Part shown: piece by piece, positions 3,702-48,426 of the stretch
How positions within the stretch are numbered: position 1 is the first letter of the stretch
How the letters are laid out: each line of letters begins with the position of its first letter
Origin: a virus
Lineage: Duplodnaviria > Caudoviricetes
Strand: one strand, 5' to 3'
Virus record (IMG/VR): IMGVR_UViG_3300006805_000023
DNA: 64,000 nt
The notes under the pieces: generated by a model
Told to the model about the DNA's origin: nothing
Database searches by the model: none
Seen by the model: the letters and a program-made list of their open reading frames with translations, nothing else
Position numbers and translations under genes: made by a program

Positions 3702-3989
3702 ATGGAAATGAGAGTACGATCCAGGTCCAAGATAGTTTACGACGCCATCACGTTTGACGAACTGGTCGAACACGGCAGAAAATCCGGTGCCTCGCTGACA
3801 CGTGGGATGCCGTGGTCGTTCACTTACAAGGGGGCCAGCGTGACCCACGAGACCGACACCTGCTACATCGTAGCCGGGGTGAAGTTCCATCAGGGCGACG
3901 TTCTGGTCAGCGACCTGGGTGACGTTGATATGACCCCAGCGGTGTTCAGCCGTAGTGATTTTGAAGCCAGCTACGAGCCCTGCCTATGA
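3702..3989 (+). CDS. Conserved small phage protein (FHQGDVL...FEASYE type)
   Basis: C-terminus resembles a widespread phage family of unknown function. Confidence 0.7.
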   Translation: MEMRVRSRSKIVYDAITFDELVEHGRKSGASLTRGMPWSFTYKGASVTHETDTCYIVAGVKFHQGDVLVSDLGDVDMTPAVFSRSDFEASYEPCL

Positions 3990-4261
3990 AAGACCGCCCC
4001 TTCTACTACGTTAACCGAGATGTTACCTTAGCCTCGACAGCCGAGTCGATCCTGGAGGATGCGCCCTCTGACGGGCTCGTGATCCGCAAGGACGAAAAGA
4101 TCAACATCCTCGACAGGAAGGAGCTGGAGGACGGCTTGGTCGCCAGGAAGGTCAGGGCCGAGAACCCGCCACGCCTAGGCTGGATGACCGCTGACCACAT
4201 CGACATCGGCGACCAGTGGCGTGACAGCCGCTACGACGGTCGTTACAACTCAGCCCTTTGA
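3986..4261 (+). CDS. Hypothetical protein (91 aa), possible SH3-like
   Basis: ATGA-coupled; LVIRKDEKINILD...LGWMTADHI is SH3-like. Confidence 0.65.
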   Translation: MKDRPFYYVNRDVTLASTAESILEDAPSDGLVIRKDEKINILDRKELEDGLVARKVRAENPPRLGWMTADHIDIGDQWRDSRYDGRYNSAL

Positions 4262-4501: not shown

Positions 4502-4614
4502 TTGTCTTTGATGGTGTCCAGGATTGCGTTGATCTCGCAGATGCAGGTCGTGGCTCCACAGCGGCAGCGTGCTGGTGGGAGGAGCCAGTCGAAGAGGCGC
4601 TTTAGCAGTTTCAT
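4498..4614 (-). CDS. 38-aa Cys-rich microprotein (not in ORF track)
   Basis: Read manually: MKLLKRLFDWLLPPARCRCGATTCICEINAILDTIKDK; ATGA overlaps at both ends. Confidence 0.7.
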   Translation of the reverse strand: MKLLKRLFDWLLPPARCRCGATTCICEINAILDTIKDK

Positions 4615-4895
4615 AAAGTGATCTTCCAGCGTGATGGTGTGCTGGCTGTGCAGAAAGGGATCTCGACGCGCCTCCTAGGTGAGGACGTGCTGACGAAGTT
4701 CATGTGGAAGATCAGACCAGTCGGACCGTCCATCGGCTGGACCTTAACGAGTTCACTGGCGAGCAGGTCTGGGTGAATCCGTCGGATCAGCGCGATCGGG
4801 AACTCCAGGAGCTTTGGCTTCGGGGTGGACAGCCGGACGACTGCCGGAGCCAGGACGGCACCGAGCAGCGTAGTAAGGAAACCGCGTCTTCTCAT
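4611..4895 (-). CDS. Twin-arginine-leader protein carrying a T4 gp23-type capsid fragment (Gol-equivalent region)
   Basis: MRRRGFLTTLLGAVLAP leader (ATG 4895; TTG 4913 alternative); IALIRRIHPDLLASELVKVQPMDGPTGLIF resembles gp23 VMGMVRRAIPNLIAFDICGVQPMNSPTGQVF. Confidence 0.8.
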   Translation of the reverse strand: MRRRGFLTTLLGAVLAPAVVRLSTPKPKLLEFPIALIRRIHPDLLASELVKVQPMDGPTGLIFHMNFVSTSSPRRRVEIPFCTASTPSRWKITL

Positions 4896-4909
4896 CCCTG
4901 GAAGAAAGC

Positions 4910-5245
4910 TCAACCGAAGTTGTCTTCCAGGTAGGTTGAAAGACCAGCCCTAGCCTCGATGGCGTCCTCGTCCTGGGAGGCGATCGAGGCCGCTCCGTCG
5001 GCCCCGTAGCCCTTGCGCCGTGCGGTCCTGGAGGCAAAGCCCCACATCACGTCGCGCAGGTCCTGGGGAGTTGGGGCTAGGGCCAGCTTGCGGATGTCTC
5101 TTTGTGGCCACTGGCCCTCCTTGAAGTACTCGATAGCAGCCTTGCGCATCTTCTCGAAATCGGACTTCGTGTCCGTGGGCTGAGGAGCCGGGTCTTCTCC
5201 AGCCAGGAGGGTTTCAACGAGGGCGTCGGGTGTCTGTGGTCTCAT
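4910..5245 (-). CDS. Hypothetical protein, possible internal head protein
   Basis: N-terminal DALVETLLAGE; TAATTAT motif 9 nt upstream. Confidence 0.7.
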   Translation of the reverse strand: MRPQTPDALVETLLAGEDPAPQPTDTKSDFEKMRKAAIEYFKEGQWPQRDIRKLALAPTPQDLRDVMWGFASRTARRKGYGADGAASIASQDEDAIEARAGLSTYLEDNFG

Positions 5246-7581: not shown

Positions 7582-9396
7582 ATGGACTCACTCTCCCCAC
7601 TCGCCTTTCCGTCCTTTCCACCCTCTGACCCTAATGAGCCCGTCCGTCAGGTTGGGGTTCGTGTCAATGATCAGGGAGTCACCGAGGCCTTCCAGACCGT
7701 GACGCCACCAAAGCCGTTTAACTACGAGGATCTTACGCCGGATCAACGGGACGCTCTGCAGGGCGCGGTTTACGCAGCTAACTTTGGCACCCAGCAGGAC
7801 ATCGAGGCACATCGGGAGGTGGTGCTTGGGTTTGGAGCCAGTCTGCCGGATGTCTTGGATGAGCGGGATGCCGAAGCGGCTGCTCTGTTTACTCTTGGGC
7901 TCGATCTGGCAGCGCCGGGGTCGTCGGCTCAGACCAAGAAGGTCACGATGGTCAGGCAGCTGAATCAGACGGGCCTTGAGTATCAGGAGGAGTTCAAGCG
8001 GCGGTATGAGGACCACGGGTGCTCGTGTCACGTTTCGCCACCGTGTGGCTTCTGCGTTGATCCTGGGAACCCGACCAACTTGGCGGAGGACGACTCGATG
8101 TGGGAAACGGTTCCTGTGCAGGCCGTCACTGCTGAGGAGGCTGTTCAGGCGGTGGGCGAACTGAGAGCGGCGGTGGCTAAGAAGCCGGACAAGGTTGACT
8201 ACACTCCAGGAGTCTTGGCGCAACTGGACAAGATGGGTCTGGTGATCGGCGGTGACGAAGGGCTGGGTGGTGTTCCGCAGGAAACTCTGAACGAGATCAT
8301 GGAGCGCAACCCGTTGGGCTTCAAGGGCGAGAAGTATCAAATGACAGAGACCCAGCGGACCGGACCAGCTTCGAACACCATTGACTGGTCGAAATTCAAG
8401 GCCCCTTCGCACTATAACGTTGTGGACGACCTCAAGGCGGCGACTATGAAACGCTTTGGAGCTCCCGCTGAGGCCTTGCCGGATCTGAGCGGCAACGGGA
8501 ATGATGCAGTTCTCAGCAAGACGTGGTGTCCGATCGACCGGGTAGTCGGCCAGGATACCGTCATGGGGATGCACGTCGTGGAGAACTCCGCGATGCCGCA
8601 TGACACTGTTCTTCTGAACATGGAGCAGCCGACCCCAGAGCAGACCCAGGACATCGTGCAACGTCTCCAGGCTCGACTCAACAAGCGGTTTGGAAGGACT
8701 CATGTGGCGATGGTGGGCGGCCCAAGCAACCCTCAAAGCCTCTTCCCACGCGTCAGCCAGTCGGGGAAGCGCGGCGGTGAGGAGCCGATGGCGTGGACCA
8801 ACCTTTCCGGGCAGGCTCTTCTGCTGGGGCGCATCACGGAGCTGGAGGCTCAGAACGCGGAACTTATGCTGGCTCTCCAAAAGGCGCAGCGGACTTTCTT
8901 GTTGCTTGAGAAGGAGAAATGCCTGCGGTCACGGGACGCCGACGGCACGGAATCCACGAGCCCTCCGAAGTGCGTAATCAGCGCCGTGGTTGCCATCGTG
9001 AGAGCTTTGCACGACAAGGTGCCGACCCGGACCATGAAGGCTCTGCAGGCCATCGAGTGGCTGGAGCGGGAAGGCAAGCGCTACCCGAACATCACGCTGG
9101 ACTGGTCACTGGATGATGAGGCCTGGGTGATCACGATGGGAGGCCGGTCGTGGACCTGCGACGAGGAAATGGGCGGGATCATCGGGGCGGTCGAGTCGAT
9201 CAAGAACCGCAGCGTTGACCCGTCGGCAAAAAGCTGGCCGTTCGAGGAGTTCAAGCGCGAGTTCGACGAGACGATCGGCAAGATGACCGCAGAGGAGCTG
9301 GAAGCCGCTATGGACGAGATCCGATCCAAAGAGGGCGCGACCGGCGAGGCTCCGGAAATGATCGAAAAGCACTGGGAGGAAGCTGGTGAAGCTTAA
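7582..9396 (+). CDS. 604-aa mosaic hypothetical protein (CSCHxxPPCxxC motif, portal/capsid-like snippets)
   Basis: Long ORF with the GCSCHVSPPCGFC motif; see findings. Confidence 0.8.
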   Translation: MDSLSPLAFPSFPPSDPNEPVRQVGVRVNDQGVTEAFQTVTPPKPFNYEDLTPDQRDALQGAVYAANFGTQQDIEAHREVVLGFGASLPDVLDERDAEAAALFTLGLDLAAPGSSAQTKKVTMVRQLNQTGLEYQEEFKRRYEDHGCSCHVSPPCGFCVDPGNPTNLAEDDSMWETVPVQAVTAEEAVQAVGELRAAVAKKPDKVDYTPGVLAQLDKMGLVIGGDEGLGGVPQETLNEIMERNPLGFKGEKYQMTETQRTGPASNTIDWSKFKAPSHYNVVDDLKAATMKRFGAPAEALPDLSGNGNDAVLSKTWCPIDRVVGQDTVMGMHVVENSAMPHDTVLLNMEQPTPEQTQDIVQRLQARLNKRFGRTHVAMVGGPSNPQSLFPRVSQSGKRGGEEPMAWTNLSGQALLLGRITELEAQNAELMLALQKAQRTFLLLEKEKCLRSRDADGTESTSPPKCVISAVVAIVRALHDKVPTRTMKALQAIEWLEREGKRYPNITLDWSLDDEAWVITMGGRSWTCDEEMGGIIGAVESIKNRSVDPSAKSWPFEEFKREFDETIGKMTAEELEAAMDEIRSKEGATGEAPEMIEKHWEEAGEA

Positions 9397-9577
9397 CCGG
9401 AAGACCCTAGACTTCGAGGTCGATCCTCAGCAGGGCTTCGTGGCGTTCGCAACCAGCATCACCCTGCCAGGCCACCGGGTCGTCTCGGTGGACCGGCGTG
9501 GCACCAAGGCAACCGTTACTTTCGAAGAACTCCCAACCGAACAACCAAGCAATCATGATCAAAATCGTTCACTGTGA
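9386..9577 (+). CDS. Hypothetical protein (63 aa)
   Basis: Fills the gap in a plus-strand operon. Confidence 0.55.
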   Translation: MKLNRKTLDFEVDPQQGFVAFATSITLPGHRVVSVDRRGTKATVTFEELPTEQPSNHDQNRSL

Positions 9578-9908
9578 ATCGTGCGGACGCCGTCTCTTTA
9601 TGACCGCTACCAACTGTCTGGCCTGCGGCTTCCAGCACGGCTCCGACAACGTAGATGAGCACCGCCGTCTCTGGATTGAGGGCGGCATGCCATGGTGCGG
9701 GGCCGAAGCTCCAACCGGCTGGCATCCGCTCCAGATCCTCGCTGCTATGGCCCTCAGGAAGTCCCTGGAGCGCGTGCAAGGCCGCCCACCCAAGGAGTCA
9801 CCGTTATACTCGGAGGTTGAGATCCCGAGGAGCAGTTTTGTGCCGCGTGGCGACCGGGACTCCCAGCAGGATGCGGACCACCAGTCAGAGGAGGCCGCAG
9901 CGGTATGA
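9555..9908 (+). CDS. Zn-ribbon protein
   Basis: CESC...CLAC; trimmed to ATG 9555. Confidence 0.65.
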   Translation: MIKIVHCESCGRRLFMTATNCLACGFQHGSDNVDEHRRLWIEGGMPWCGAEAPTGWHPLQILAAMALRKSLERVQGRPPKESPLYSEVEIPRSSFVPRGDRDSQQDADHQSEEAAAV

Positions 9909-10099
9909 TGGCTTTTGCGTTCATGAAACTCCTGGCTGAGAAGATCAAGGAGAAGGGCGGCGACTTCGAGCTGAAGGCGCACGATGGCATGGGCGACCTA
10001 CGACCGGTGACCGGCCTGGGTGTCTCAATGGTCTCGCGTGGCTCCTTGTTCCTTGAAGAGGTTTACGTGGACACCAGAGAGTTTGGACAGGCGGGTTGA
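9905..10099 (+). CDS. Hypothetical protein (64 aa)
   Basis: ATGA-coupled. Confidence 0.65.
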   Translation: MMAFAFMKLLAEKIKEKGGDFELKAHDGMGDLRPVTGLGVSMVSRGSLFLEEVYVDTREFGQAG

Positions 10100-10124
10100 C
10101 TTTCTCGAAGTCCTGGATTAGCTT
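10096..10124 (+). promoter_or_regulatory. Class-1 promoter TTGACT-N17-TAGCTT
   Basis: 6 nt before ATG 10131. Confidence 0.75.
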
Positions 10125-10130
10125 CTCGCC

Positions 10131-11288
10131 ATGGACCAAAAACCACTACCAACGCCGGAGCCAGGCGTCTTCCCTATTCCAGGGCCTTGTTACTACCTGA
10201 CCGGCCCCGACGCCTTCGTCCAGCTCAAGGAAACCCTGAGCAAGGCTCCGACGGACGAGGAGGCCAAGAAGGCTCTGGACGAATTTGTGATCAAGTTCCC
10301 TGACGTGGCCCGGTGGATGAAATGGCAAACTGGAGATGTCGAGAAGGCCCTCAGCCAAATCGAGCCAGCCCCTGAGCAACGCACCGCGTGGAATGGTAGG
10401 ATGCAGGCCCTTAGCATCAAGCATCAGAAGAGCATCGAGCGGGCTACCAACGTTGTTATGCAGCGCAATGCTCTCAACTTCAACATCCAAGGCACGTTGA
10501 CTGGCCGTGTGAGCGGCAGCGCCTCGAACGTGACCGAGGAGCCTAGAATCCGAGGCTGCACAAGAGCTGAGCTGGCTGAGAGGTACGATGTGTTTCTGCG
10601 CGAAGTCCGGCTGGTTCAACGCGACCTCGGTTTATTCAAGAAGAAGCCTACGAAGCCCACGGTGTGCTGGCCGATCCGAATGTGGCGCAAGCTCACTGGG
10701 TGGAAGCGTCCAGCCAAGCCGGGGCGCAAGATCCTGGACAACGAGGAACTGCACCGCTGGGCTGACCGCATCTTCAAGCGGTATCTGACAGACGCTCCCT
10801 ATATCATCCGGACCTTCTGGGGCGGATCGGTCGCTTTCATCACCAAGGACGTAGGCGGCATGCAGATGTGGTATTGCTCGTCCTTCGGGACCTGTTCCAA
10901 CAAGTCGCTCCAGTATGGGCTGCGCGTCGGCACGCTCACGAACTCCCCTGAGGCTTCGTTAGCAATGTTCAGATTGAGCTATCCTGGACTGTTCGACGGA
11001 ACAGTGGTCCCCCGAACATTTGACGAGGGGCTGTGGTGGTGGAACAAACGCTGTAGCCTGACCCCTCAGGGAGACCAGAAGCTAATGTTCAACAAGAAGG
11101 GCGAATCGTGGTGGTGGCAGGTTGTTGAGGGCAATTATTGGGCGGTCTTCAAGGGCAACCGCAGGATTTGGCCGATCAGCCGCGACGTCCAGCCGCTCAC
11201 CCCGAGGGACGCCATGATCGGGCTGCGGCTCCACGACCCAAGGATGTTGCCGATCGAAACCTTCAAAGGCTTCAAAGGAAAACTCTGA
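10131..11288 (+). CDS. Hypothetical protein (385 aa) with an isolated Pol A-like TGRxS motif
   Basis: FNIQGTLTGRVSGSASNVTEEPR; Trp-rich C-terminal half. Confidence 0.85.
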   Translation: MDQKPLPTPEPGVFPIPGPCYYLTGPDAFVQLKETLSKAPTDEEAKKALDEFVIKFPDVARWMKWQTGDVEKALSQIEPAPEQRTAWNGRMQALSIKHQKSIERATNVVMQRNALNFNIQGTLTGRVSGSASNVTEEPRIRGCTRAELAERYDVFLREVRLVQRDLGLFKKKPTKPTVCWPIRMWRKLTGWKRPAKPGRKILDNEELHRWADRIFKRYLTDAPYIIRTFWGGSVAFITKDVGGMQMWYCSSFGTCSNKSLQYGLRVGTLTNSPEASLAMFRLSYPGLFDGTVVPRTFDEGLWWWNKRCSLTPQGDQKLMFNKKGESWWWQVVEGNYWAVFKGNRRIWPISRDVQPLTPRDAMIGLRLHDPRMLPIETFKGFKGKL

Positions 11289-11289
11289 C

Positions 11290-12594
11290 ATGGACCTCTT
11301 GCCGAACCTCCCGCCCAACCTCCCACCGCCGGAACTCTCAACCCCAGAGCAGAGAAAGGCAGCCTTCATGCGTGCCATGGGGGAGCTGCACAAGCACCAG
11401 AAGGCCATTGTGGGTCTGACCAACCACGTCCGGCTCCTGCAGACCCTCGCCAAGGGCACCATGAAGGAGCGCATGCTGGTGGCTCTCCAAAACGCTGGCC
11501 CTCTTTATCAAACGCTTTGCCCACGCAAGTACCGCGACATCCCGACGCACGCTTCGCCGCGCAACCTGCTCATTATGTGCGTCCTTGCAGCTCTCGTGTT
11601 CAGGGACTATGGGGCCGTCAACGGCTTTGACCTGAAGAACATGCGGCCCGAGCAATACGCGGACCTCATGAAGCGGTCGGATTCGATGTCGCATGGTTAC
11701 GCGAAGGAGAACAGCCTGAGGCTGTGGCGTGTGATGGGCGACATGATCGAGAATGACTCGCCAACCTACTACCTCGACCAGGAGGCTTCCGAGGAAATGC
11801 TGGAGACCCAGTGTGACGACCTCAAGATGACGTGGGACGACTTCGACTGGCCTCACCCGGTCTTCATGTTGATGCCTCCGATTGGCTTGTACAAGAACAG
11901 CCCGCTGCTCATTCTGGCACACCGTGACGACCAGTACGTGACCTTCACAGGTCTGACAGAGGAGATGGTGGACTACAACCAGAAGCTGTTCGCCACCGAG
12001 TTTCCGATCAAGAGCGAGATCGGAGCTTCGGTCAAGAGCTTGATGGACGCCAAATACCACAGGCTCATAGGAGGAGACAAGATCCGGGACATGGAGGACG
12101 GCCTCAGGGATTTCATCAACAAGACCATGCAGGTGTGCGTCAACGCCCTGCTGGCCATGGTGGCGGAGCCCAAGTTTGAGGAGCTGGAGAAGTCAGGCGC
12201 GCAACCACGCCCAGCCAGTCAAGAGCGCCGTGCGCGTGACCCGTCTGCCCTCTGGAATCCGACCTTCTTCAAGATGGAACGGACCAGACAGGCGTCGGAG
12301 GGGAGTAGCGATGGTAAGGGCGGTCACCGACGCCCCCACCCACGGCGAGCGCACTGGAAGAGCGTCTGGCTGGACGGCAGCGAGGACACCCAACTGGAAC
12401 CGGGGAAACGTGCCAGGCACACCCAAGACCAGCGGGTCGCCCATTGGGTCACGAGCATTGAAGGTGACGTCGTGACCCTCAAAAACGCCGCTGGTGAGGA
12501 GAAGTCCGTGCACCGCTCCGAGGTGAAGCCGTCCAAGGTCAAGTTCCGGTGGATCAAACGCCGGATCGTCGGGCTCAAGAACCACCTAGCTTGA
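11290..12594 (+). CDS. Conserved phage protein with a C-terminal PHxRRxHW motif
   Basis: GGHRRPHPRRAHWKSVW...RWIK C-terminus typical of a phage family of unknown function. Confidence 0.85.
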   Translation: MDLLPNLPPNLPPPELSTPEQRKAAFMRAMGELHKHQKAIVGLTNHVRLLQTLAKGTMKERMLVALQNAGPLYQTLCPRKYRDIPTHASPRNLLIMCVLAALVFRDYGAVNGFDLKNMRPEQYADLMKRSDSMSHGYAKENSLRLWRVMGDMIENDSPTYYLDQEASEEMLETQCDDLKMTWDDFDWPHPVFMLMPPIGLYKNSPLLILAHRDDQYVTFTGLTEEMVDYNQKLFATEFPIKSEIGASVKSLMDAKYHRLIGGDKIRDMEDGLRDFINKTMQVCVNALLAMVAEPKFEELEKSGAQPRPASQERRARDPSALWNPTFFKMERTRQASEGSSDGKGGHRRPHPRRAHWKSVWLDGSEDTQLEPGKRARHTQDQRVAHWVTSIEGDVVTLKNAAGEEKSVHRSEVKPSKVKFRWIKRRIVGLKNHLA

Positions 12595-12619
12595 CAAGCG
12601 TCGGCTTGTGTGATAGAGT
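12591..12619 (+). promoter_or_regulatory. Class-1 promoter TTGACA-N17-TAGAGT
   Basis: Followed by a short leader to ATG 12654. Confidence 0.8.
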
Positions 12620-12653
12620 TCCAGTCAAGTTACGAAACCCAGCACCTGTCAAC

Positions 12654-12989
12654 ATGGACGACTTACTCTTACTGCAGCACACCCTCGGCCAAGACCACTT
12701 CACCGTCAAAGAAGTCGTCCTCGATGGCGTTTTCATGGTCGCCATCAAGACCAACGGAAGAGCAATCCCGAAGGCCTTCGTCGCCAAGTGGGAAAAGGCT
12801 CTGGGTCAGGCCGGAGCAAAACTCGATGAGGCCTGTGGTTCGGATAATGGCGAGACCACGACCCGTCGTTACGAGGTCCCGGTGCTGCGCGACACCATCT
12901 TCCTGATCACCACGGCCAAGAAGCTCTGGAAAACCGATTACCTCTCCGCCAAAATCACAGTCAGCACCACCTACGAAGTCACCCAATGA
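12654..12989 (+). CDS. Hypothetical protein
   Basis: ORF 12549..12989 trimmed to the first ATG after the promoter. Confidence 0.7.
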   Translation: MDDLLLLQHTLGQDHFTVKEVVLDGVFMVAIKTNGRAIPKAFVAKWEKALGQAGAKLDEACGSDNGETTTRRYEVPVLRDTIFLITTAKKLWKTDYLSAKITVSTTYEVTQ

Positions 12990-13420
12990 ACCCAGCCCTC
13001 CACCAAAACGATGCCAGGAGCATCGCCACCGCCATCGTCGAAGACCTCCTCAAGGATATGGTGCCGAAGGACAAAACCTTCGACCATGTTCAGATCCACA
13101 ACCGAAGCCTTGCAGATGGCTTCATCGGCCAGGGTCCGTTCCTGTCACGACCCGCTCTTGAGAGCAAGCTGCAGTCCATCCTGAAGAAGCACCTCGGTAC
13201 TGCCCTGGAGCGCGACGGGCGCGACATCGGGACGGCTGCCCCGCAGGAGAAGGCCGACTTTTTCGCGGAGGATCTGGCTGCCCTTGAAAAGGCCTACGAC
13301 GCCAGTGTTTCTACCGGCGTCAACGTCGCTGGCGGCGGTGGCCTCTGGCTCAACCTGATGATTGGGGACAAGCACGGCAACGTGTTCCTCGGCAGCGCAA
13401 AGGATCGCGGAACCTACTAA
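12986..13420 (+). CDS. Hypothetical protein (144 aa)
   Basis: ATGA-coupled. Confidence 0.75.
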   Translation: MNPALHQNDARSIATAIVEDLLKDMVPKDKTFDHVQIHNRSLADGFIGQGPFLSRPALESKLQSILKKHLGTALERDGRDIGTAAPQEKADFFAEDLAALEKAYDASVSTGVNVAGGGGLWLNLMIGDKHGNVFLGSAKDRGTY

Positions 13421-13424
13421 AGCC

Positions 13425-13937
13425 ATGGCACATCCAAACAACGAGCAAGGGTCTCACACCAAGCTGGTCGCCACTAAAGTCCCCGAGGGATTCGTGCTCT
13501 ACGAGCGTGCTGGCGTCGGCGATAATCAGAACGTGCTCCTGTCGCGTGCCAGAATGCTTGAACACCGCAACGACTTGGTAGCCAAACACGGGGAGGACGT
13601 CGGGCTCGCCTATCAGATGGAAGGCCGGTCGGGTCTGCAGAAAGCACCGTCCCGTTACTTCTGCGTCTTGGCCCCCATCACGGAGCCCGTGCTGGTCCCG
13701 TCGGGTCATCGCTACATCGACGCCGTGGATGTGCTCTACCGGACGATCTGGCAGAAACAAGAGGAGCTGAACGACCACGTCCGGGCGGTCCTTGAGAGAT
13801 CTCCGCCCGAGAATGAGGTGCAACGCATGATCGGCTTCGTCCAAGGGGTCAACTCGATCCGTGGCTGGCCCGTTTGCCTTGGCCTCACCAGCGACATCAT
13901 CGAATATCAGCAGCGGCAGCGACGCGCTCAGCGCTGA
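13425..13937 (+). CDS. Hypothetical protein
   Basis: ORF 13362..13937 trimmed to ATG 13425. Confidence 0.75.
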   Translation: MAHPNNEQGSHTKLVATKVPEGFVLYERAGVGDNQNVLLSRARMLEHRNDLVAKHGEDVGLAYQMEGRSGLQKAPSRYFCVLAPITEPVLVPSGHRYIDAVDVLYRTIWQKQEELNDHVRAVLERSPPENEVQRMIGFVQGVNSIRGWPVCLGLTSDIIEYQQRQRRAQR

Positions 13938-19594: not shown

Positions 19595-21259
19595 TCAGCG
19601 CTTGTGGTAAATGAAGCAAAGCTTCTCAGAGCCCCAGACTTTCCGGAGCAGATTCGTCTCCGCGTAGGCCGCCTCAGTGGTTGACATCTTTTGAGCCCTG
19701 CCCCAGACGGTGCGCTTGTGAACGACCCAGCCGAGCTGATCCACGTAGTAGTAGTCGGGAGCGACCGTGTGACTGAACCGGAAGTTGCTGGCCCGGTAGA
19801 GGCCGCCTGAGTGGCCCATCGTGGTGTCCGCGTAGGTCACAACGTCCTGACCGCTAAGCTTGAGACAACGCGACAAAAACCACGATCCAAGGTTCTTGAC
19901 CTGGTAGGCCGGGTCAAGCCAGAACCGCGTCAGCTCCACGGCGTCCTTGTATTTGAGGGTCTGCTCGTTGCGCTGGAACGGCCCAAACGAACACGCCCCG
20001 ATGACGGTTTCACCCGAGAACAGCCCAAGATGTTGTTTGCCACGGCTTGACCCCAGGTAATGACGCGAGTAAACGACCTGCGACTCCCGGAACGTGATCT
20101 CGCGAATCGCCAGAGCCTTGAAGTCAACTTCGTGCAACGCTGGCTTGTCAGCCAGGCCTAGCATCTCTTTGATCCGGTGCAGCACGCGCCCCTCGGTGTG
20201 GAACTCAAGCTCCCAGATCACTGCCAGCCTGACACCGGGGCAATAGCGCTCCACGTAGGTCGCCTTAGCCTTGTCACGCGGACCGGCGGCTGGCTTGCCA
20301 TGCCAGTACTCCCCGTGGCACTCGATCAAAAGGTTGTGGTCTGGAACCCAGACGTCGAAGTTCCAGGGTCCGATCGGATGCTCGGACGCCCACTTGATGC
20401 CAAGCGAATCCAGGATAGCAAACACTGCCTTGTTGAGAGATGACACCACTGGTTGGTTAGCGCGGGCCACAGCCATCTTGGCCTTGACAACCTCGCTCTG
20501 CATGGCGTCCCTGACGCTCTGCTTAAACTCTCCAGTAGCGCCAAGCTCGCGTGACTTCGCACAAAAACGCTCCACCCAGACAGGGTCGTCCCAGTAGGAC
20601 TGCAGCCGGTGCTGCAGCTCAGGATCGGCCATCGCTTCCAGGTGCCTGCGCCGAACCTCCGGGTTGTCCCAGTTGGCCTTCACAATGCCTGTCAGGCGCT
20701 CCCGGTACTCTGGGTTGGCCCAGCACTGCTGCGACATTGTGGACATAGCAGCCGCGTAGTCCGGGTCCTGCCAGCGCACCAGGGTGGCGGTGCGCAGCCG
20801 CTCGCGCAGGCTGATCGACCGCATCGCTAGCAAATGCCGGTCGCGCACCTCTGGGTTCGAGTACGACTCCTTGAGAGTCATAGCCATGTTGGCGCGGTAT
20901 ACCGGGTCTGCAGCACGCCTGCGGATCATGGTCAGCCAGCCCTCATCCTGTGACCGCTTTCTGATGGCGGCCCGCATCCGACCAGAAGTTTCTGGATCAG
21001 TCCAGGCCGCCTTGCTCTGCTGCGACAGGCGCTGGCGCTCTTCGGAAGTGGCTGGCACGCCCTTGTTATGTGGGACCACCCGTCCTTCAGCCTGTGCCTC
21101 CTTGAAACCGGCCTGCTGTTTCTCCCGATAGTCGGGTGACTTTATGACGCACTTAAAACAACGGGTCTCGCCCTTGCGCTTGCGGCGGGACACGGTCATG
21201 CGGTTCACGATCTCTATCGTTCCGCACGCCGAACATGTCACTGTGTAAACCTTAGCCAC
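19595..21259 (-). CDS. Homing-endonuclease-like fusion: Zn ribbon, WxDPExR helical repeats, Vsr/DUF559-type nuclease, Mom-like GNAT domain
   Basis: IGPWNFDVWVPDHNLLIECHGEYWHG; HYLG...ELTRFW...VVTYADTTMGHSGGLYRASNF. Confidence 0.8.
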   Translation of the reverse strand: MAKVYTVTCSACGTIEIVNRMTVSRRKRKGETRCFKCVIKSPDYREKQQAGFKEAQAEGRVVPHNKGVPATSEERQRLSQQSKAAWTDPETSGRMRAAIRKRSQDEGWLTMIRRRAADPVYRANMAMTLKESYSNPEVRDRHLLAMRSISLRERLRTATLVRWQDPDYAAAMSTMSQQCWANPEYRERLTGIVKANWDNPEVRRRHLEAMADPELQHRLQSYWDDPVWVERFCAKSRELGATGEFKQSVRDAMQSEVVKAKMAVARANQPVVSSLNKAVFAILDSLGIKWASEHPIGPWNFDVWVPDHNLLIECHGEYWHGKPAAGPRDKAKATYVERYCPGVRLAVIWELEFHTEGRVLHRIKEMLGLADKPALHEVDFKALAIREITFRESQVVYSRHYLGSSRGKQHLGLFSGETVIGACSFGPFQRNEQTLKYKDAVELTRFWLDPAYQVKNLGSWFLSRCLKLSGQDVVTYADTTMGHSGGLYRASNFRFSHTVAPDYYYVDQLGWVVHKRTVWGRAQKMSTTEAAYAETNLLRKVWGSEKLCFIYHKR

Positions 21260-21298: not shown

Positions 21299-23791
21299 TT
21301 ACTTCTGTTTCTTGGCTTTCCTGATGTCGCGAGCCATCTCCTCGACTCCCTCGTCGTCATCCTGGCGCTTGCGCTTGCGTGGATTCTCTTCCTCGTCCTC
21401 TTCCTCCGGCATTGGCTCAGAACCAATTGACGAAAGGTACATGTAAGCTGGGTCGCAGCGGCAGATGATGCGGTTGTTGCCACCTTCATTACGGGAAGCG
21501 ATCGGGATGAGGTGCAGAGTGCCCTCTTTCTTGTACCTACGCAATGCGTAACAATAGTCACAAATCCCAACCCACTCGAAGCTCGCCGCCATGTGTTTCA
21601 TACCTGGACGGTTGGATGACTGCTCCTCACGGTTAGAACGGGCTGCCGTCCAGAGTGGGAACTTCCATTTCTGAGCTACTGAGCGCAGGTCGGTCGCGAT
21701 GATGACCTTCTCCAAGTAGTCCTTCTCCTTCTTCTGGTCGGACCCCACAAGGTTCAGGTAGTCGATGACTACCATGCCGAACACGATGCCGTGCTCGCGC
21801 TGCATCATTTCGAGGTAGTCATCCAGCACCTTGGGTGTGAACTTGTAGGCGTCAAAGTACTTGATGACGATGTTCTTGCCTGGCTGATAGATGTTCTTGA
21901 CGCGGATCTTCCAGTAGTCGATGAACCCCTCTGGGTTGCGCATCATGTCGTGCTTGGTCCGCATCGTGGTGCGCACTCCAAACCGCAGGAGCTGAAGATG
22001 CTCCGACAGCTCCAGGGTGATGTAAAGAGTGTTGACCCCCACGCCGCGCTTCACGGCGTTAAAGGCGAAGTTGAGCATCGTCCCACTGTTGTGTGTGACC
22101 GTAAAGTCGCCGAGGAGGTAGCGATGGTTGCCATCAGTCCTCCAGCCGCACCAGTCGCCCTCCCCAACTGGCTCCACTTTGATCGGTGTCCGGTCTGTCA
22201 CCTTCACGGAGTCGGTGCCGCGCTTGCGTGCCAGCTTGGTTGGGATCTCGCTGACCTTGCCCTGGATGAGGGTCCGGAACGCGGTGTGATAGGTCTTGGT
22301 GCCGTCTGGGTGAACACAGGACGACCTGAACTCGACAACATGTGCTCTGAACCCAAGGCTGCGGGCCAGCCAACAGGCGTCGTCGCAGAGAGTCCGGTTG
22401 GTGTTGTTGAACGTGAACCCATTCACGCGCAGGAAATGACCATCGCTGTCGATCATCCCAGCCAGCACCTGGAGCCTGACCTCGCGACTGTTAAACTTGT
22501 AGAGGTCGGGCACGTGCTTCAGGCTGCCAGCCCCACCCAAACCAACCGAGCGTAGAGCTTGTTTCAGCGGGTTAAAACCGGGGGAGTCAGTAACCAAGTT
22601 GACGTTTGAACATTTCGCTCTCACCCTAGCACCGGTCTTATCCACTCTGAACTTCTGCTGCTCACTAATTCTGAGCCCCCACTGAGAAGCCAGGCCGCTT
22701 AGATAATCCTTTACCTCGTGATCGTCATCTGCACTACAAATCCCAGTGTTCCGTATCACTCCGTCGCCAAGCCAAAGCCCAATGTAGTAGGGGCAGACCA
22801 GAGTGGCCTGAGACGGAAACTCGACGCCAGCCTTGAAGCCCTGCCAGGTCCGCTTGAACCACGGCTTCTGTTTGGCGTATTCCTCAGCAGTCATCTCCAG
22901 GGTCTGTTCAGTGTGATACCTGGCTTGCTGCGGGACCTCTGTATCAGGGCGTTTCAAGACGAGCTTGTGCTCAGCAGTGACTGTGTAGGAGTCGCCGTTG
23001 GCCTGAGTCACCTTAAACATCTGTCCTCGCCCGGTGCCAAGCTCCAACACCCGACGAGGAGTTGAGTCATCCCCCATCAGCAAGTCACCGAGCTTCACTT
23101 CTTTGGCGAGCTTGATACTCCCGTCGAACATCATAACCGGCTGATTTGGTTCCGAGCACTTGAAGCCCTTAGGCGGTGCCATGAGCATGCAAAGGTCGCC
23201 CTGTCTTGGTCCCCCGCCCAGCTCGGCGTCAAAGTGGACCAACCCGGTTGGGATCGCGGGTCGCCACTTAGGGTCGGTCTCGTTCCTCACCATGGTCTCT
23301 GTAGCGCCGATCACCAGACTTCCCGGATCGGTCTTCTTGGTGCCAGCCATCAGAGCCACCCGGAAGCGGTCAACCAGTGCTGCGTCGATCTTACCGGCCT
23401 GCAGGTCATCCAGGGTCTCGACCACCGCTGACTGAAGGGCCTTTCCTTGCAAGAACTGGGCCAGTCGTGCTGCCACGTAGGCCGGTGAAGCACTAGGGGG
23501 CTTACAGATCTCCTCGACGTGGTCCAGAAGCGTCTGGCGCTGTCTCTTTTCGCGCTCATTGCCAGCGGCGAAGGCCACCAGAATGTGGTCACGCAGGACG
23601 GACCGTGACGGGATCGCCCGATAGGTCCTGTAGTAGTCCTGGGCCATCCCCCACAACATCTGGGACGAAGCGTCCAGCAGATACTCCGGTTTGAGCGAGG
23701 ACTCGCATCCTAGGAACAGTCCCTGATCGGCCAGCACGGTGCGGACTACCTCAAGCTCAAAATCAGGATCTTCGGTCAGTAGGGTTGCCAT
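21299..23791 (-). CDS. dnaB: Replicative DNA helicase (DnaB/T4 gp41-like) containing an intein
   Basis: IPTGLVHFDAELGGG, P-loop APPKGFK|S, LYITLELSE, Walker B VVIDYLNL, WTAARSNR. Confidence 0.9.
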   Translation of the reverse strand: MATLLTEDPDFELEVVRTVLADQGLFLGCESSLKPEYLLDASSQMLWGMAQDYYRTYRAIPSRSVLRDHILVAFAAGNEREKRQRQTLLDHVEEICKPPSASPAYVAARLAQFLQGKALQSAVVETLDDLQAGKIDAALVDRFRVALMAGTKKTDPGSLVIGATETMVRNETDPKWRPAIPTGLVHFDAELGGGPRQGDLCMLMAPPKGFKCSEPNQPVMMFDGSIKLAKEVKLGDLLMGDDSTPRRVLELGTGRGQMFKVTQANGDSYTVTAEHKLVLKRPDTEVPQQARYHTEQTLEMTAEEYAKQKPWFKRTWQGFKAGVEFPSQATLVCPYYIGLWLGDGVIRNTGICSADDDHEVKDYLSGLASQWGLRISEQQKFRVDKTGARVRAKCSNVNLVTDSPGFNPLKQALRSVGLGGAGSLKHVPDLYKFNSREVRLQVLAGMIDSDGHFLRVNGFTFNNTNRTLCDDACWLARSLGFRAHVVEFRSSCVHPDGTKTYHTAFRTLIQGKVSEIPTKLARKRGTDSVKVTDRTPIKVEPVGEGDWCGWRTDGNHRYLLGDFTVTHNSGTMLNFAFNAVKRGVGVNTLYITLELSEHLQLLRFGVRTTMRTKHDMMRNPEGFIDYWKIRVKNIYQPGKNIVIKYFDAYKFTPKVLDDYLEMMQREHGIVFGMVVIDYLNLVGSDQKKEKDYLEKVIIATDLRSVAQKWKFPLWTAARSNREEQSSNRPGMKHMAASFEWVGICDYCYALRRYKKEGTLHLIPIASRNEGGNNRIICRCDPAYMYLSSIGSEPMPEEEDEEENPRKRKRQDDDEGVEEMARDIRKAKKQK
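22088..23158 (-). mobile_element. Intein (357 aa) with LAGLIDADG endonuclease in the helicase P-loop
   Basis: Starts CSEPNQPVMMFDG, ends LGDFTVTHN, +1 Ser; IGLWLGDG and LAGMIDSDG motifs. Confidence 0.93.
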
Positions 23792-47296: not shown

Positions 47297-47450
47297 TTTT
47301 ACAAGTTTAGTGCAGAGTGACCTGCGTTTGGTTTGTGTTTAACGAGTTGCCTCGTTCTCGAAACTCGTGGGGACGATACGCTCCCACGTGCCCGGATAAG
47401 GATGTTCCGCGCACCAACAGTGTCCGCGTTGGCGGTGTGGCCGCAAGAGC
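47297..47450 (-). ncRNA. Putative omega/reRNA overlapping the tnpB 3' end (5' boundary approximate)
   Basis: Hairpins at 47376-47398 and 47341-47356 (AACGAG-GCAA-CUCGUU); GGTCAC right-end-like motif ending at 47317. Confidence 0.55.
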
Positions 47451-48426
47451 CACACTGGAACTTCTCATTCGTCCGGTTGTCATTTGCTCGGTGACTGCAT
47501 TCAGGGCACGTCTGCGAGGTGTAGGCAGGGTTTACTCGGACAAACAGAACACAGTTCTCTCTGGCCTTTTGTTCAACCCTACCCAGCACAGAGGCATAGC
47601 GCCAAGGAGCAAGGAGTTTACGAAATTGTTTGCCGCGCTTGGGCTGCTTGCCTATCTTCAGGCCAGTCAGATCCTCGACCGCAACGGTTTTGAGAATACC
47701 CCAGGGAAGTTGGTTAACGCAGCGGTTCAGGTAACGATCCCGCGTGGTGCGAGCCCTACGCATCCCCTGGCCCCCTGGCTTCGCCATCCTGACGGCCTTG
47801 CCGATGGTCTTGAAGTCACGACCGATCAAGTTGCCGTCACTAGTTGCAAGAACAGTGCTGACCCCGCAATCCACGCCCAGCTCCGCACCCTCGGACCGCA
47901 GTGCGAGGTCCGGAATGTCAATCCAGAGGATGGCATACGCCCCTCTGTTTGTGAGACTAAGTTCGCAGCCTTTGGCAAGCACTGCCCCAGGCTTGCTCAA
48001 CCATTTATTAAGAACCTTCGTGGACTTCGCTGGGACGTTTATGCGGCAACCACTGCGCAGCGTGGAAACGCGCAGCCAGGTGTCGAACGCCTTGCTTGAC
48101 TTCCCGAAGGTGATGGAGACACACTTCTGGTTGACTTTGACACCGCGCTTGACCACAGGGCGGGTGGCCTTATTGACCGTGGCTCGTTGGGATTCCCGCG
48201 TCGCCTTGACTATTCCGAGCGCCTGTCGCAAAGCTGCAGCTCTGTAGTTGAACGGTAAGTGCCCGAGCGGCACAACGTCAGCAGTGGCCTTATCGAGACC
48301 GCCTTTGTTACCCCACAGAAACTTGATGTAACGGTTGCAGGCGCTCAAAAAACGCGACTCCACCGCCCGCAGCTTGCGCAGTTTGGACTCGGTGGCGTAA
48401 AGTTTGATTTTGACAGAGCGCGTCAT
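47299..48426 (-). CDS. tnpB: TnpB RNA-guided endonuclease (IS200/IS605 family), no TnpA nearby
   Basis: RuvC-I GVDCG, RuvC-II VEDL, NPAYTSQTCPEC, CGSC...NADTVGARNI. Confidence 0.93.
   Translation of the reverse strand: MTRSVKIKLYATESKLRKLRAVESRFLSACNRYIKFLWGNKGGLDKATADVVPLGHLPFNYRAAALRQALGIVKATRESQRATVNKATRPVVKRGVKVNQKCVSITFGKSSKAFDTWLRVSTLRSGCRINVPAKSTKVLNKWLSKPGAVLAKGCELSLTNRGAYAILWIDIPDLALRSEGAELGVDCGVSTVLATSDGNLIGRDFKTIGKAVRMAKPGGQGMRRARTTRDRYLNRCVNQLPWGILKTVAVEDLTGLKIGKQPKRGKQFRKLLAPWRYASVLGRVEQKARENCVLFVRVNPAYTSQTCPECSHRANDNRTNEKFQCGSCGHTANADTVGARNILIRARGSVSSPRVSRTRQLVKHKPNAGHSALNL

What the first reader, a model, noticed from the sequence alone, without database searches (positions are those of the whole stretch)
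10479..10547. Pol A motif snippet embedded in an otherwise non-polymerase early protein
Seen: FNIQGTLTGRVSGSASNVTEEPR in the 385-aa ORF, with no other polymerase motifs. Known: family-A DNA polymerases conserve FNQxxTxTGRLSSxxPNLQNIP. Inference: another conserved phage-replication epitope placed out of context, consistent with the capsid-fragment theme (decoy for polymerase-sensing defence) or with a recycled DNA-binding loop.
Basis: partly seen in the sequence, partly recalled or inferred. Interest (0 to 1): 0.6.

Follow-up and report, generated by a model that had tools for sequence, protein, structure and literature searches.

The report
Scrambled DNA-polymerase relic beside AcrVA2-like gene

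Summary
The motif is real: FNIQGTLTGRVSGSASNVTEEPR is residues 117-139 of the 385-aa ORF 10131-11288. The order is non-native, catalytic motifs A, B and C are absent, and the region models as disordered, so it is no polymerase. The family is tiny (five proteins among billions). All four long members keep one canonical TGR motif, but before a shared helix in one subclade and after it in the other, as a short linear motif would behave. In all four lineages the gene abuts an AcrVA2-like gene bearing the family's H-x-R-x-x-H signature. Best reading (about 0.4): polymerase-derived peptides serve the AcrVA2-like silencer as pseudo-target or adaptor. The decoy idea is untested. This scan noted a parallel on other DNA (e1-5392748: AcrVA2-like protein fused to RNA-polymerase motif copies), which I could not check. 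I could not reach the phage's own polymerase gene.

The parts
10131..11288 (+). 385-aa ORF (P0001), member of a five-protein orphan family
   Evidence: ORF and translation. GC3 is 0.74 against 0.58 overall GC. Homologues are P0002 (37% identity), P0003, P0005 and P0010. dN/dS between P0003 and P0010 is 0.13.
10191..10250 (+). residues 21-40 (YYLTGPDAF...TLSKAP): position where the other subclade has its canonical TGR motif; here degenerate (inference)
   Evidence: MAFFT column correspondence with P0003 FNLKGTRTGRFNSSTLN. There is no statistical support for an internal repeat.
10251..10472 (+). residues 41-114: segment resembling Pol I 780-852 (EAxxxxDxFxxxFPxVxxWM helix, GR, ERxxNxxMQ = motif-6-like)
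   Evidence: Pfam PF00476 E 4.6e-4, profile positions 233-304. Own HMM 19.3 bits. hhalign Prob 84, E 7.5e-6. NCBIfam PRK05755 hits the same stretch at E 0.072. Residues 83-116 have a rival assignment to the thumb end just before motif 2.
   Evidence: hhalign vs Pol I 657-692 Prob 73, E 3.1e-5. BLASTP to the D69 and CcrPW polymerases. AF2 pLDDT is below 50 over residues 101-144.
10623..10706 (+). residues 165-192: Lys/Arg/Trp-rich linker (KKKPTKPTVCWPIRMWRKLTGWKRPAKPGR), strongly conserved
   Evidence: Alignment A1. 57% identity between P0001 and P0002 over residues 140-190.
10698..11285 (+). residues 190-385: conserved C-terminal domain of unknown fold (two alpha-beta-beta-beta-alpha units in low-confidence models); occurs alone in P0005
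   Evidence: Alignments A1 and A5. AF2 models have pLDDT 53-55. No significant fold or family match.
11290..12594 (+). 434-aa AcrVA2-like gene (P0008), starting 1 nt after the stop codon of P0001
   Evidence: Precomputed PF26125 hits on this protein and its three orthologues. Junction sequence TGA-C-ATG.
12337..12357 (+). HPRRAHW (residues 350-356 of P0008): H-x-R-x-x-H signature of the AcrVA2 family
   Evidence: Invariant in alignment A4. It corresponds in pattern to AcrVA2 H286, R288 and H291, whose mutation abolishes activity (bioRxiv 10.1101/2022.11.29.518452).

Best explanation
Shown: the N-terminal third of this protein (about residues 20-145) is a non-catalytic mosaic of segments derived from a family-A DNA polymerase palm. 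It holds a helix-plus-motif-6-like piece (Pol I 780-852) followed by motif 2 with its flanks (Pol I 657-692). This mosaic is fused to a basic Trp/Arg-rich linker and an orphan C-terminal domain. The gene forms a conserved, translationally coupled pair with a downstream AcrVA2-like gene. Inferred: selection acts on the polymerase pieces as short linear peptides, not as a fold. They are most likely read by the AcrVA2-like partner, whose founder binds short peptides of its target and then causes destruction of that target's mRNA. Two concrete versions fit. (a) The upstream ORF is a pseudo-target: excess AcrVA2-like protein recognises the nascent polymerase-like peptide and destroys its own bicistronic mRNA, which would be feedback control. 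(b) The protein is an adaptor or antidote that tunes a silencer aimed at family-A polymerases of the host or of rival phages. The peptide copy would then name the silencer's target.
For: Polymerase origin:
- Pfam PF00476 E 4.6e-4.
- Independent 82-sequence HMM: P0001 19.7 bits, P0002 6.7, P0003 7.2, each with 0 of 4000 shuffles reaching it. The ORF is the only polymerase-like frame among the window's 521.
- hhalign Prob 84, 73 and 92 for three segments.
- 5 of only 12 weak tblastn hits in 2.3 Gb of phage DNA fall on motif 2 of annotated DNA polymerases. The pairwise scores are never reached by shuffles.
- Language-model neighbours include clusters of PolA fragments, and these vanish when the N-terminus is left out.

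Not an enzyme:
- A single HMM domain, with no motif A, B or C.

Linear-motif behaviour:
- The segment order is non-native.
- The canonical TGR motif lies before the shared FP helix in P0003 and P0010 and after it in P0001 and P0002.
- The region has pLDDT below 50.
- Conserved islands are separated by linkers of 14-38% identity.

Partner:
- In all four lineages the stop codon overlaps or abuts the start of a PF26125 gene.
- That gene carries HPRRAHW.
- AcrVA2 binds target peptides, in the 7CI2 peptide complex and at the nascent LSKT motif.

Lead only:
- The scan note e1-5392748 reports an AcrVA2-like protein fused to copies of RNA-polymerase motifs.
Against: - The link to the AcrVA2-like gene rests on adjacency within one syntenic phage clade. 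That is effectively one evolutionary observation, since both families are confined to the same four lineages.
- The model does not explain the well-conserved C-terminal domain, which is more conserved than the polymerase-like part and exists alone in P0005.
- P0002's motif 2 is weak on the HMM (-1.4 bits).
- Residues 83-116 have two incompatible polymerase assignments.
- Low AF2 confidence with a four-sequence alignment does not prove disorder.
- The parallel case is an unchecked AI note.
- I could not compare the peptides with the phage's own polymerase.
Confidence: 0.4

Rival explanations
1. DNA-end-binding relic. The retained pieces are the parts of the palm that touch the primer terminus (equivalents of Arg668 in TGR and of Asn845/Gln849 in N-x-x-MQ). 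The N-terminus would fold into a catalytically dead palm fragment that binds primer-template ends, for example to block or compete with polymerases. It would act independently of the AcrVA2-like gene.
For: P0001 keeps R126 in TGR and N107/Q111 in NVVMQ. Arg668 contacts the primer 3' end and the incoming dNTP and belongs to a conserved Arg-Gln-His network in family-A enzymes (PMC11122685). A Lys/Arg/Trp-rich conserved linker follows the motifs.
Against: P0003 and P0010 lack the N-x-x-MQ element. The segment order is non-native and differs between subclades. No confident fold was obtained. The His881/Asp882 part of the network is missing.
Confidence: 0.2
2. Inert evolutionary leftover. A fragment of a polymerase gene was captured when the gene was assembled, for example during homing-endonuclease or intein traffic, which is rife in this genome. 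It now serves only as a spacer or helical scaffold, with the TGR core persisting by slow decay.
For: The genome holds many inteins and endonuclease inserts. The polymerase-like part evolves faster than the C-terminal domain. P0005 works without it, if it is complete.
Against: The subclades are only about 36% identical. Even so, each keeps one canonical TGR motif and the FP helix, which is the best-conserved stretch between P0001 and P0002 at 62% identity. dS is saturated between them, so a neutral peptide should have been erased.
Confidence: 0.2
3. Decoy or bait for a host defence that senses phage DNA polymerase. The exposed polymerase peptides would soak up or mislead a sensor, in the same spirit as the capsid-fragment mini-proteins encoded 5 kb upstream.
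For: Out-of-context signature peptides of two different conserved phage proteins occur in the same accessory region: PF07068 Gp23 hits on about 90-aa proteins (scan notes e1-5378203 and e1-5378204). The motif region is probably flexible.
Against: No sensor is known or identifiable here. The idea explains neither the coupling to the AcrVA2-like gene nor the C-terminal domain. I have no evidence that any defence recognises motif 2.
Confidence: 0.1
4. Chance resemblance: the N-terminus is unrelated to polymerases.
For: Every single score is below curated thresholds (PF00476 19.7 against 34.3 bits). The database-level tblastn E-values are 3-8. PDB searches with the sequence or a two-sequence profile are not significant.
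Against: Four independent lines hit the same two polymerase regions: Pfam, my own HMM, hhalign on two subclades, and BLAST to two unrelated jumbo-phage polymerases. Shuffles did not reach the whole-polymerase HMM scores of P0001, P0002 and P0003, nor the BLAST scores to the D69 and CcrPW polymerases. For P0010, 3 of 4000 shuffles reached its whole-HMM score.
Confidence: 0.07

Closest known systems
Family-A DNA polymerases (E. coli Pol I, T7 gp5, Caulobacter phage CcrPW gp420, Vibrio phage D69 split polymerase)
   Same: Shares motif 2 (f-n-x-x-GT-x-TGR-x-S-S-x-x-N...P, then IR-x-c) with its flanks. Also shares the helix EA...F..(Y/F)P.V..(Y/W)M and a motif-6-like ER.A.N..MQ. P0003 and P0010 add a motif-A-like (V/I)DY.KAE(L/V)ALLA.
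   Different: Only about 100 residues are related. The order is non-native. Motifs B and C and the whole fingers, thumb and exonuclease architecture are absent. The score is below Pfam's cut-off, and the rest of the protein is unrelated. It is derived from a polymerase but is not a member.
AcrVA2 / FinQ family (Pfam PF26125; PDB 7CI1/7CI2; bioRxiv 10.1101/2022.11.29.518452)
   Same: The coupled downstream gene belongs to this family and keeps the H-x-R-x-x-H signature. The founder recognises short peptides of its target, which is what the upstream protein displays.
   Different: AcrVA2 is described as acting alone on Cas12a, and no partner protein carrying target-like peptides has been described. 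The 385-aa protein itself shows no relation to the family (hhalign Prob 0.3). Target and activity here are unknown.
Scan note e1-5392748 (another genome): AcrVA2-like protein fused to copies of RNA-polymerase active-site motifs
   Same: The same combination: an AcrVA2-family protein next to a floppy string of signature peptides of a conserved nucleic-acid polymerase.
   Different: There the motifs are fused to the AcrVA2-like protein and come from RNA polymerase. Here they sit in a separate upstream protein and come from DNA polymerase. That note is unchecked, and I could not examine its sequence.
Capsid-fragment mini-proteins of the same phage (window 4250-4895; scan notes e1-5378203 and e1-5378204)
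   Same: Accessory proteins that carry an isolated signature stretch of a conserved phage protein (T4-type gp23).
   Different: Those are about 90-aa proteins with Tat-type leaders. P0001 has no export signal, is larger, and is paired with an AcrVA2-like gene.

Membership tests
Family-A DNA polymerase (Pfam PF00476) | Whole-protein score above the curated gathering threshold (34.3 bits) | tested here: not met
   19.7 bits, E 4.6e-4, one stretch at residues 41-122. P0002 and P0003 give no Pfam hit.
Family-A DNA polymerase (Pfam PF00476) | Motif A (D-Y-S-Q-I-E-L-R, catalytic Asp705) | tested here: not met
   Absent from P0001 and P0002 (single HMM domain). P0003 and P0010 have (V/I)DY.KAE(L/V)ALLA aligned to motif A by hhalign (Prob 92), but with a rival assignment.
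Family-A DNA polymerase (Pfam PF00476) | Motif B (R-x-x-x-K-x-x-x-F-x-x-x-Y-G, O helix) and fingers subdomain | tested here: not met
   No alignment to HMM positions between motif A and position 353 in any member.
Family-A DNA polymerase (Pfam PF00476) | Motif C (V-H-D-E, catalytic Asp882) | tested here: not met
   No alignment beyond HMM position 432. There is no HDE in the sequence.
Family-A DNA polymerase (Pfam PF00476) | Motif 2 (T-G-R-L-S-S-x-x-P-N-L-Q-N-I-P, Arg668) | tested here: met
   P0001 7.1 bits, P0010 9.3 bits and P0003 16.8 bits on the motif HMM. hhalign E 3.1e-5 and 5.7e-7. TGR is kept in all four long members. The PNLQNIP half is degenerate.
AcrVA2/FinQ family (PF26125), for the coupled neighbour 11290-12594 | Match to the family profile | tested here: inconclusive
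   Precomputed PF26125 hits on P0006 to P0008 and on the called genes, faint for P0009. The Pfam copy I could scan did not return the family. PDB sequence searches found nothing.
AcrVA2/FinQ family (PF26125), for the coupled neighbour 11290-12594 | C-terminal H-x-R-x-x-H signature (AcrVA2 H286, R288, H291) | tested here: met
   HPRRAHW is invariant in three orthologues.
AcrVA2/FinQ family (PF26125), for the 385-aa protein itself | Profile similarity to the neighbouring AcrVA2-like proteins (tandem-paralogue possibility) | tested here: not met
   hhalign A1 vs A4: Prob 0.3, E 0.22.

The most novel reading that the evidence does not exclude
AcrVA2-family silencers carry, in cis or in a coupled partner, copies of the signature peptides of the protein they target. 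Here the target would be family-A DNA polymerases of the host or of competing phages. The phage's own polymerase would escape because its epitope differs or is interrupted by its intein until after translation. If so, the targets of the roughly 1,800 orphan AcrVA2 homologues could be read from such peptide copies.
Probability: 0.15. Interest if true: 0.85.

Novelty: new variant of a known kind. Interest (0 to 1): 0.55.

Why it matters
AcrVA2 homologues are widespread on phages and plasmids, mostly where Cas12a is absent, and their targets are unknown. A partner protein that displays recognisable pieces of a conserved enzyme would give the first sequence-based clue to what such a silencer is aimed at. 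It would also suggest a feedback or adaptor layer in translation-coupled mRNA destruction. Even on the modest reading, this is a clear example of an essential enzyme's signature peptides being kept, shuffled and moved within an accessory protein. That behaviour is typical of short linear motifs and not of domains. Together with the capsid-fragment proteins nearby, it suggests this phage lineage reuses 'epitopes' of core phage proteins.

Tried and rejected
1. Reaching the phage's own family-A polymerase (reported by scan notes about 25 kb past the window end). I walked along sister contigs with the look-up of encoding contigs. Two look-ups were wasted on wrong minus-strand coordinates and one on an ORF whose start lies outside the window. 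The Logan sister contig ends at about window position 84.5 kb, and the ENA contig was never shown again. A metagenome scan with the last reachable protein found nothing. All look-ups are now used.
2. No whole genome is held for the window or for L001.
3. Complex prediction of P0008 with P0001 returned no verdict (score 0.09, controls not run). This is evidence neither way.
4. AF2 of the whole protein and of the C-terminal domain gave pLDDT 53 and 55. Foldseek against the PDB and VIA-align wide gave only noise-level rows (E at least 0.05, Z at most 4.0). Several were dsRBD or SH2 folds with the same alpha-beta3-alpha topology. I do not claim a fold.
5. The family is absent from IMG/VR and from 50,697 phage records at E 0.01. 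The AcrVA2-like neighbour is likewise absent from the phage records.
6. PDB sequence searches with P0001, P0003 and profile A2 were not significant. A Pol I chain appears at E 0.25 on the TGR stretch.
7. P0004 (1958 aa), returned by the representative search, is a repeat protein matched through low-complexity similarity and was discarded.
8. The tandem-duplication model of the N-terminus has no significant internal repeat in hhalign self-comparisons. It is kept only as speculation.
9. The C-terminal tag [VIT]-D-G-x-T-Q of scan note e1-5359865 is not present in this window.
11. The promoter and terminator scan of 9000-13600 shows nothing above shuffles.

Full report
**1. Observation**

ORF 10131-11288 (+) encodes a 385-aa protein, P0001. 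The peptide FNIQGTLTGRVSGSASNVTEEPR is its residues 117-139, at 10479-10547, exactly as reported. The ORF is a real gene. Its GC3 is 0.74 in a 58% GC window, it has homologues, and the closest pair of homologues shows dN/dS of about 0.13.

**2. Setting**

The window is part of a 218-kb phage contig. It carries a DnaB-type helicase with an intein, a Mom-like enzyme, primase, tail-fibre-type proteins and another intein host. No frame of the window other than P0001 resembles a family-A polymerase: 19.7 bits against 3.5 for the next of 521 six-frame ORFs.

Scan notes describe the genome as a T4-like jumbo phage from wastewater. They place its own intein-bearing family-A polymerase about 25 kb beyond the window (e1-5378219). 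I could not verify this (see section 8).

**3. The family**

A search of 1.84 billion representatives and two word-indexed searches of 5.8 billion clusters found only P0002 (411 aa, 37% identity), P0003 (348 aa) and P0005 (235 aa, C-terminal domain only). A fifth member, P0010 (352 aa), came from the neighbourhood of an AcrVA2-like orthologue. IMG/VR and the GenBank phage set hold none. P0004 was a low-complexity artefact.

**4. Is the polymerase likeness real?**

Pfam reports PF00476 at E 4.6e-4 and 19.7 bits, below the 34.3 cut-off.

I built an independent HMM from 80 IMG/VR polymerases plus E. coli Pol I and T7 gp5. The results were:
- P0001 scores 19.7 bits, with residues 41-128 aligned to 'seeeAqelidayfkrfpglkkwi...GRrr...aerqavNtpiQGta'.
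- P0002 scores 6.7 bits and P0003 scores 7.2 bits.
- None of 4000 shuffles of each protein reaches its score.

A 25-column HMM of motif 2 alone (consensus HttfkqhGTvTGRlSStDPNLQNIP) gives:

| Protein | Bits | Shuffles reaching it |
|---|---|---|
| P0003 | 16.8 | 0 of 4000 |
| P0010 | 9.3 | 1 of 4000 |
| P0001 | 7.1 | 1 of 4000 |
| P0002 | -1.4 | not significant |

. On this HMM P0001's ORF is the top frame of the window, but the runner-up scores 6.7.

Profile-profile comparison separates the pieces:
- P0001 with P0002, residues 41-114, match Pol I 780-852 (Prob 84, E 7.5e-6).
- P0001 with P0002, residues 115-143, match Pol I 657-692, which is motif 2 plus the following I-R-x-A (Prob 73, E 3.1e-5).
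- P0003 with P0010, residues 26-72, match Pol I 657-725, which is motif 2 and motif A with a 19-residue deletion (Prob 92, E 5.7e-7).

A tblastn of residues 30-150 against 2.3 Gb of phage genomes gives only 12 weak hits (E 3-8). Five of them lie on motif 2 of annotated DNA polymerases, in Vibrio phages D69, D181 and D148 and in Caulobacter phage CcrPW. Pairwise, residues 67-146 align to D69 153-241 (35.0 bits) and residues 100-140 to CcrPW 422-458 (30.4 bits). None of 2000 shuffles reaches either score. These pairs were picked from a database search, so their pairwise E-values overstate significance. What counts is that they land on motif 2.

Language-model neighbours of the whole protein include clusters of short viral proteins that partly carry PF00476 (score 0.84, a lead only). 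These disappear when the N-terminus is excluded.

I conclude, at about 0.85, that the N-terminal third is polymerase-derived. One ambiguity remains. Residues 83-116 align to the pre-motif-6 region by HMM and hhalign, but to the thumb end before motif 2 by BLAST to D69. Both cannot be right.

**5. It is not a polymerase**

There is one HMM domain only, with no motif A, B or C in P0001. The order of the two segments is the reverse of the native order. AF2 gives pLDDT below 50 for residues 101-144, though a four-sequence alignment makes that weak evidence.

**6. How the motif behaves across the family**

- The helix A..L..F..(K/R)FP(D/E)(V/A)..W(M/V) is orthologous in all four long members (hhalign between subclades Prob 85). 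It is the best-conserved stretch between P0001 and P0002, at 62% identity.
- The canonical TGR motif lies after this helix in P0001 and P0002 (TGRVSGSASN, TGRVRSDVPN). It lies before it in P0003 and P0010 (TGRFNSSTLN, TGRFDASVLN). The two positions find each other only off-diagonal (E 0.007).
- At the 'empty' position each subclade has a degenerate look-alike: YYLTGPDAF in P0001, and TETARS and TETSRR in P0003 and P0010. A two-copy ancestor is therefore possible, but self-comparison gives no significant repeat.
- A motif that is kept while its place and surroundings change behaves like a short linear motif.

**7. The partner**

In the window the next gene starts 1 nt after the stop codon (TGA-C-ATG). 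In L001, L002/L003 and L094 the two genes overlap by 4 nt. The partner (P0008 and its orthologues P0006, P0007 and P0009) carries precomputed PF26125 'AcrVA2-like' hits. It also has an invariant HPRRAHW. This pattern matches H286, R288 and H291 of AcrVA2, which are needed for activity.

AcrVA2 binds the nascent N-terminal peptide of Cas12a and causes loss of its mRNA. Homologues abound on mobile elements without Cas12a, megaphages included. A crystal structure shows it holding a Cas12a peptide (7CI2).

P0001 itself is unrelated to this family, and the partner has no polymerase likeness.

The caveat is that all four lineages are one syntenic clade. The same acetyltransferase lies upstream and the same DHFR downstream. 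Adjacency therefore counts as about one observation, although the stop-start overlap argues for co-translation.

**8. What I could not do**

I could not fetch the phage's own polymerase. I could not get a verdict on complex formation (not evidence either way). I could not obtain a confident fold for either half. I could not obtain expression data.

**9. Explanation and rivals**

Best reading, at about 0.4: the polymerase-derived peptides are handles read by the AcrVA2-like protein. They could act as a pseudo-target on the shared mRNA, giving feedback control. Or they could be part of an adaptor or antidote for a silencer aimed at family-A polymerases.

Rivals:
- A dead palm fragment that binds primer ends (0.2). 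The kept residues correspond to Arg668 and Asn845/Gln849, and Arg668 acts at the primer terminus. But P0003 and P0010 lack the Gln element.
- An inert captured fragment (0.2).
- A decoy for a host sensor (0.1), which nothing here tests.
- Chance (0.07).

**10. Comparison and novelty**

The protein fails every catalytic criterion of family A, so it is polymerase-derived but not a member. The partner is an ordinary, if distant, AcrVA2-family member. I found no paper describing an AcrVA2-family gene with a partner that displays target-like peptides.

The scan itself noted a parallel on other DNA: an AcrVA2-like protein fused to RNA-polymerase motif copies (e1-5392748). I could not check it, and it is not independent evidence.

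I rate this a new variant of a known kind, with interest 0.55. The anatomy is solid and unusual. The mechanism is inferred.

Noticed in passing
L095:1258-4001 (Vibrio phage D69, OZ195729.1): The family-A DNA polymerase is annotated as three consecutive overlapping ORFs: 430 aa 'DNA polymerase', 181 aa hypothetical, and 318 aa 'DNA polymerase'. It is either a naturally split or a frameshifted polymerase in a 187-kb phage.
   Followed up: no
window 19595-21259 (-): A 554-aa protein joins a REase_MTES_1575-like region (weak) to a Mom/GNAT domain (PF25680, E 8e-20). It may be a DNA-modification enzyme fusion.
   Followed up: no
window 21299-23791 (-): A DnaB-type helicase interrupted by a Hint plus LAGLIDADG intein (PF05203 E 7e-15). 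The orthologue in L003 has the same insert.
   Followed up: no
window 47299-48426 (-): A transposase-like gene (phrog_506 and phrog_12300, E 1.6e-26) sits among late and tail genes.
   Followed up: no
L002:10001-11047 (P0003 residues 78-91): An exact tandem duplication of seven residues (ARSFTET ARSFTET) lies in the linker between the FP helix and the degenerate second TGR-like site. It is absent from P0010.
   Followed up: partly
window 7582-9396 (+): A 604-aa orphan protein two to three genes upstream, with a CSCHVSPPCGFC cysteine cluster. It has only weak PHROG hits (phrog_22771, E 0.0014) and is shorter (397 aa) in the relative L001.
   Followed up: no
window 4611-4913 (-) and L001:1632-1901, 3880-4167: Proteins of about 90-100 aa with precomputed PF07068 (T4 Gp23 major capsid) hits occur in the window's phage and its relative.
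   Followed up: partly
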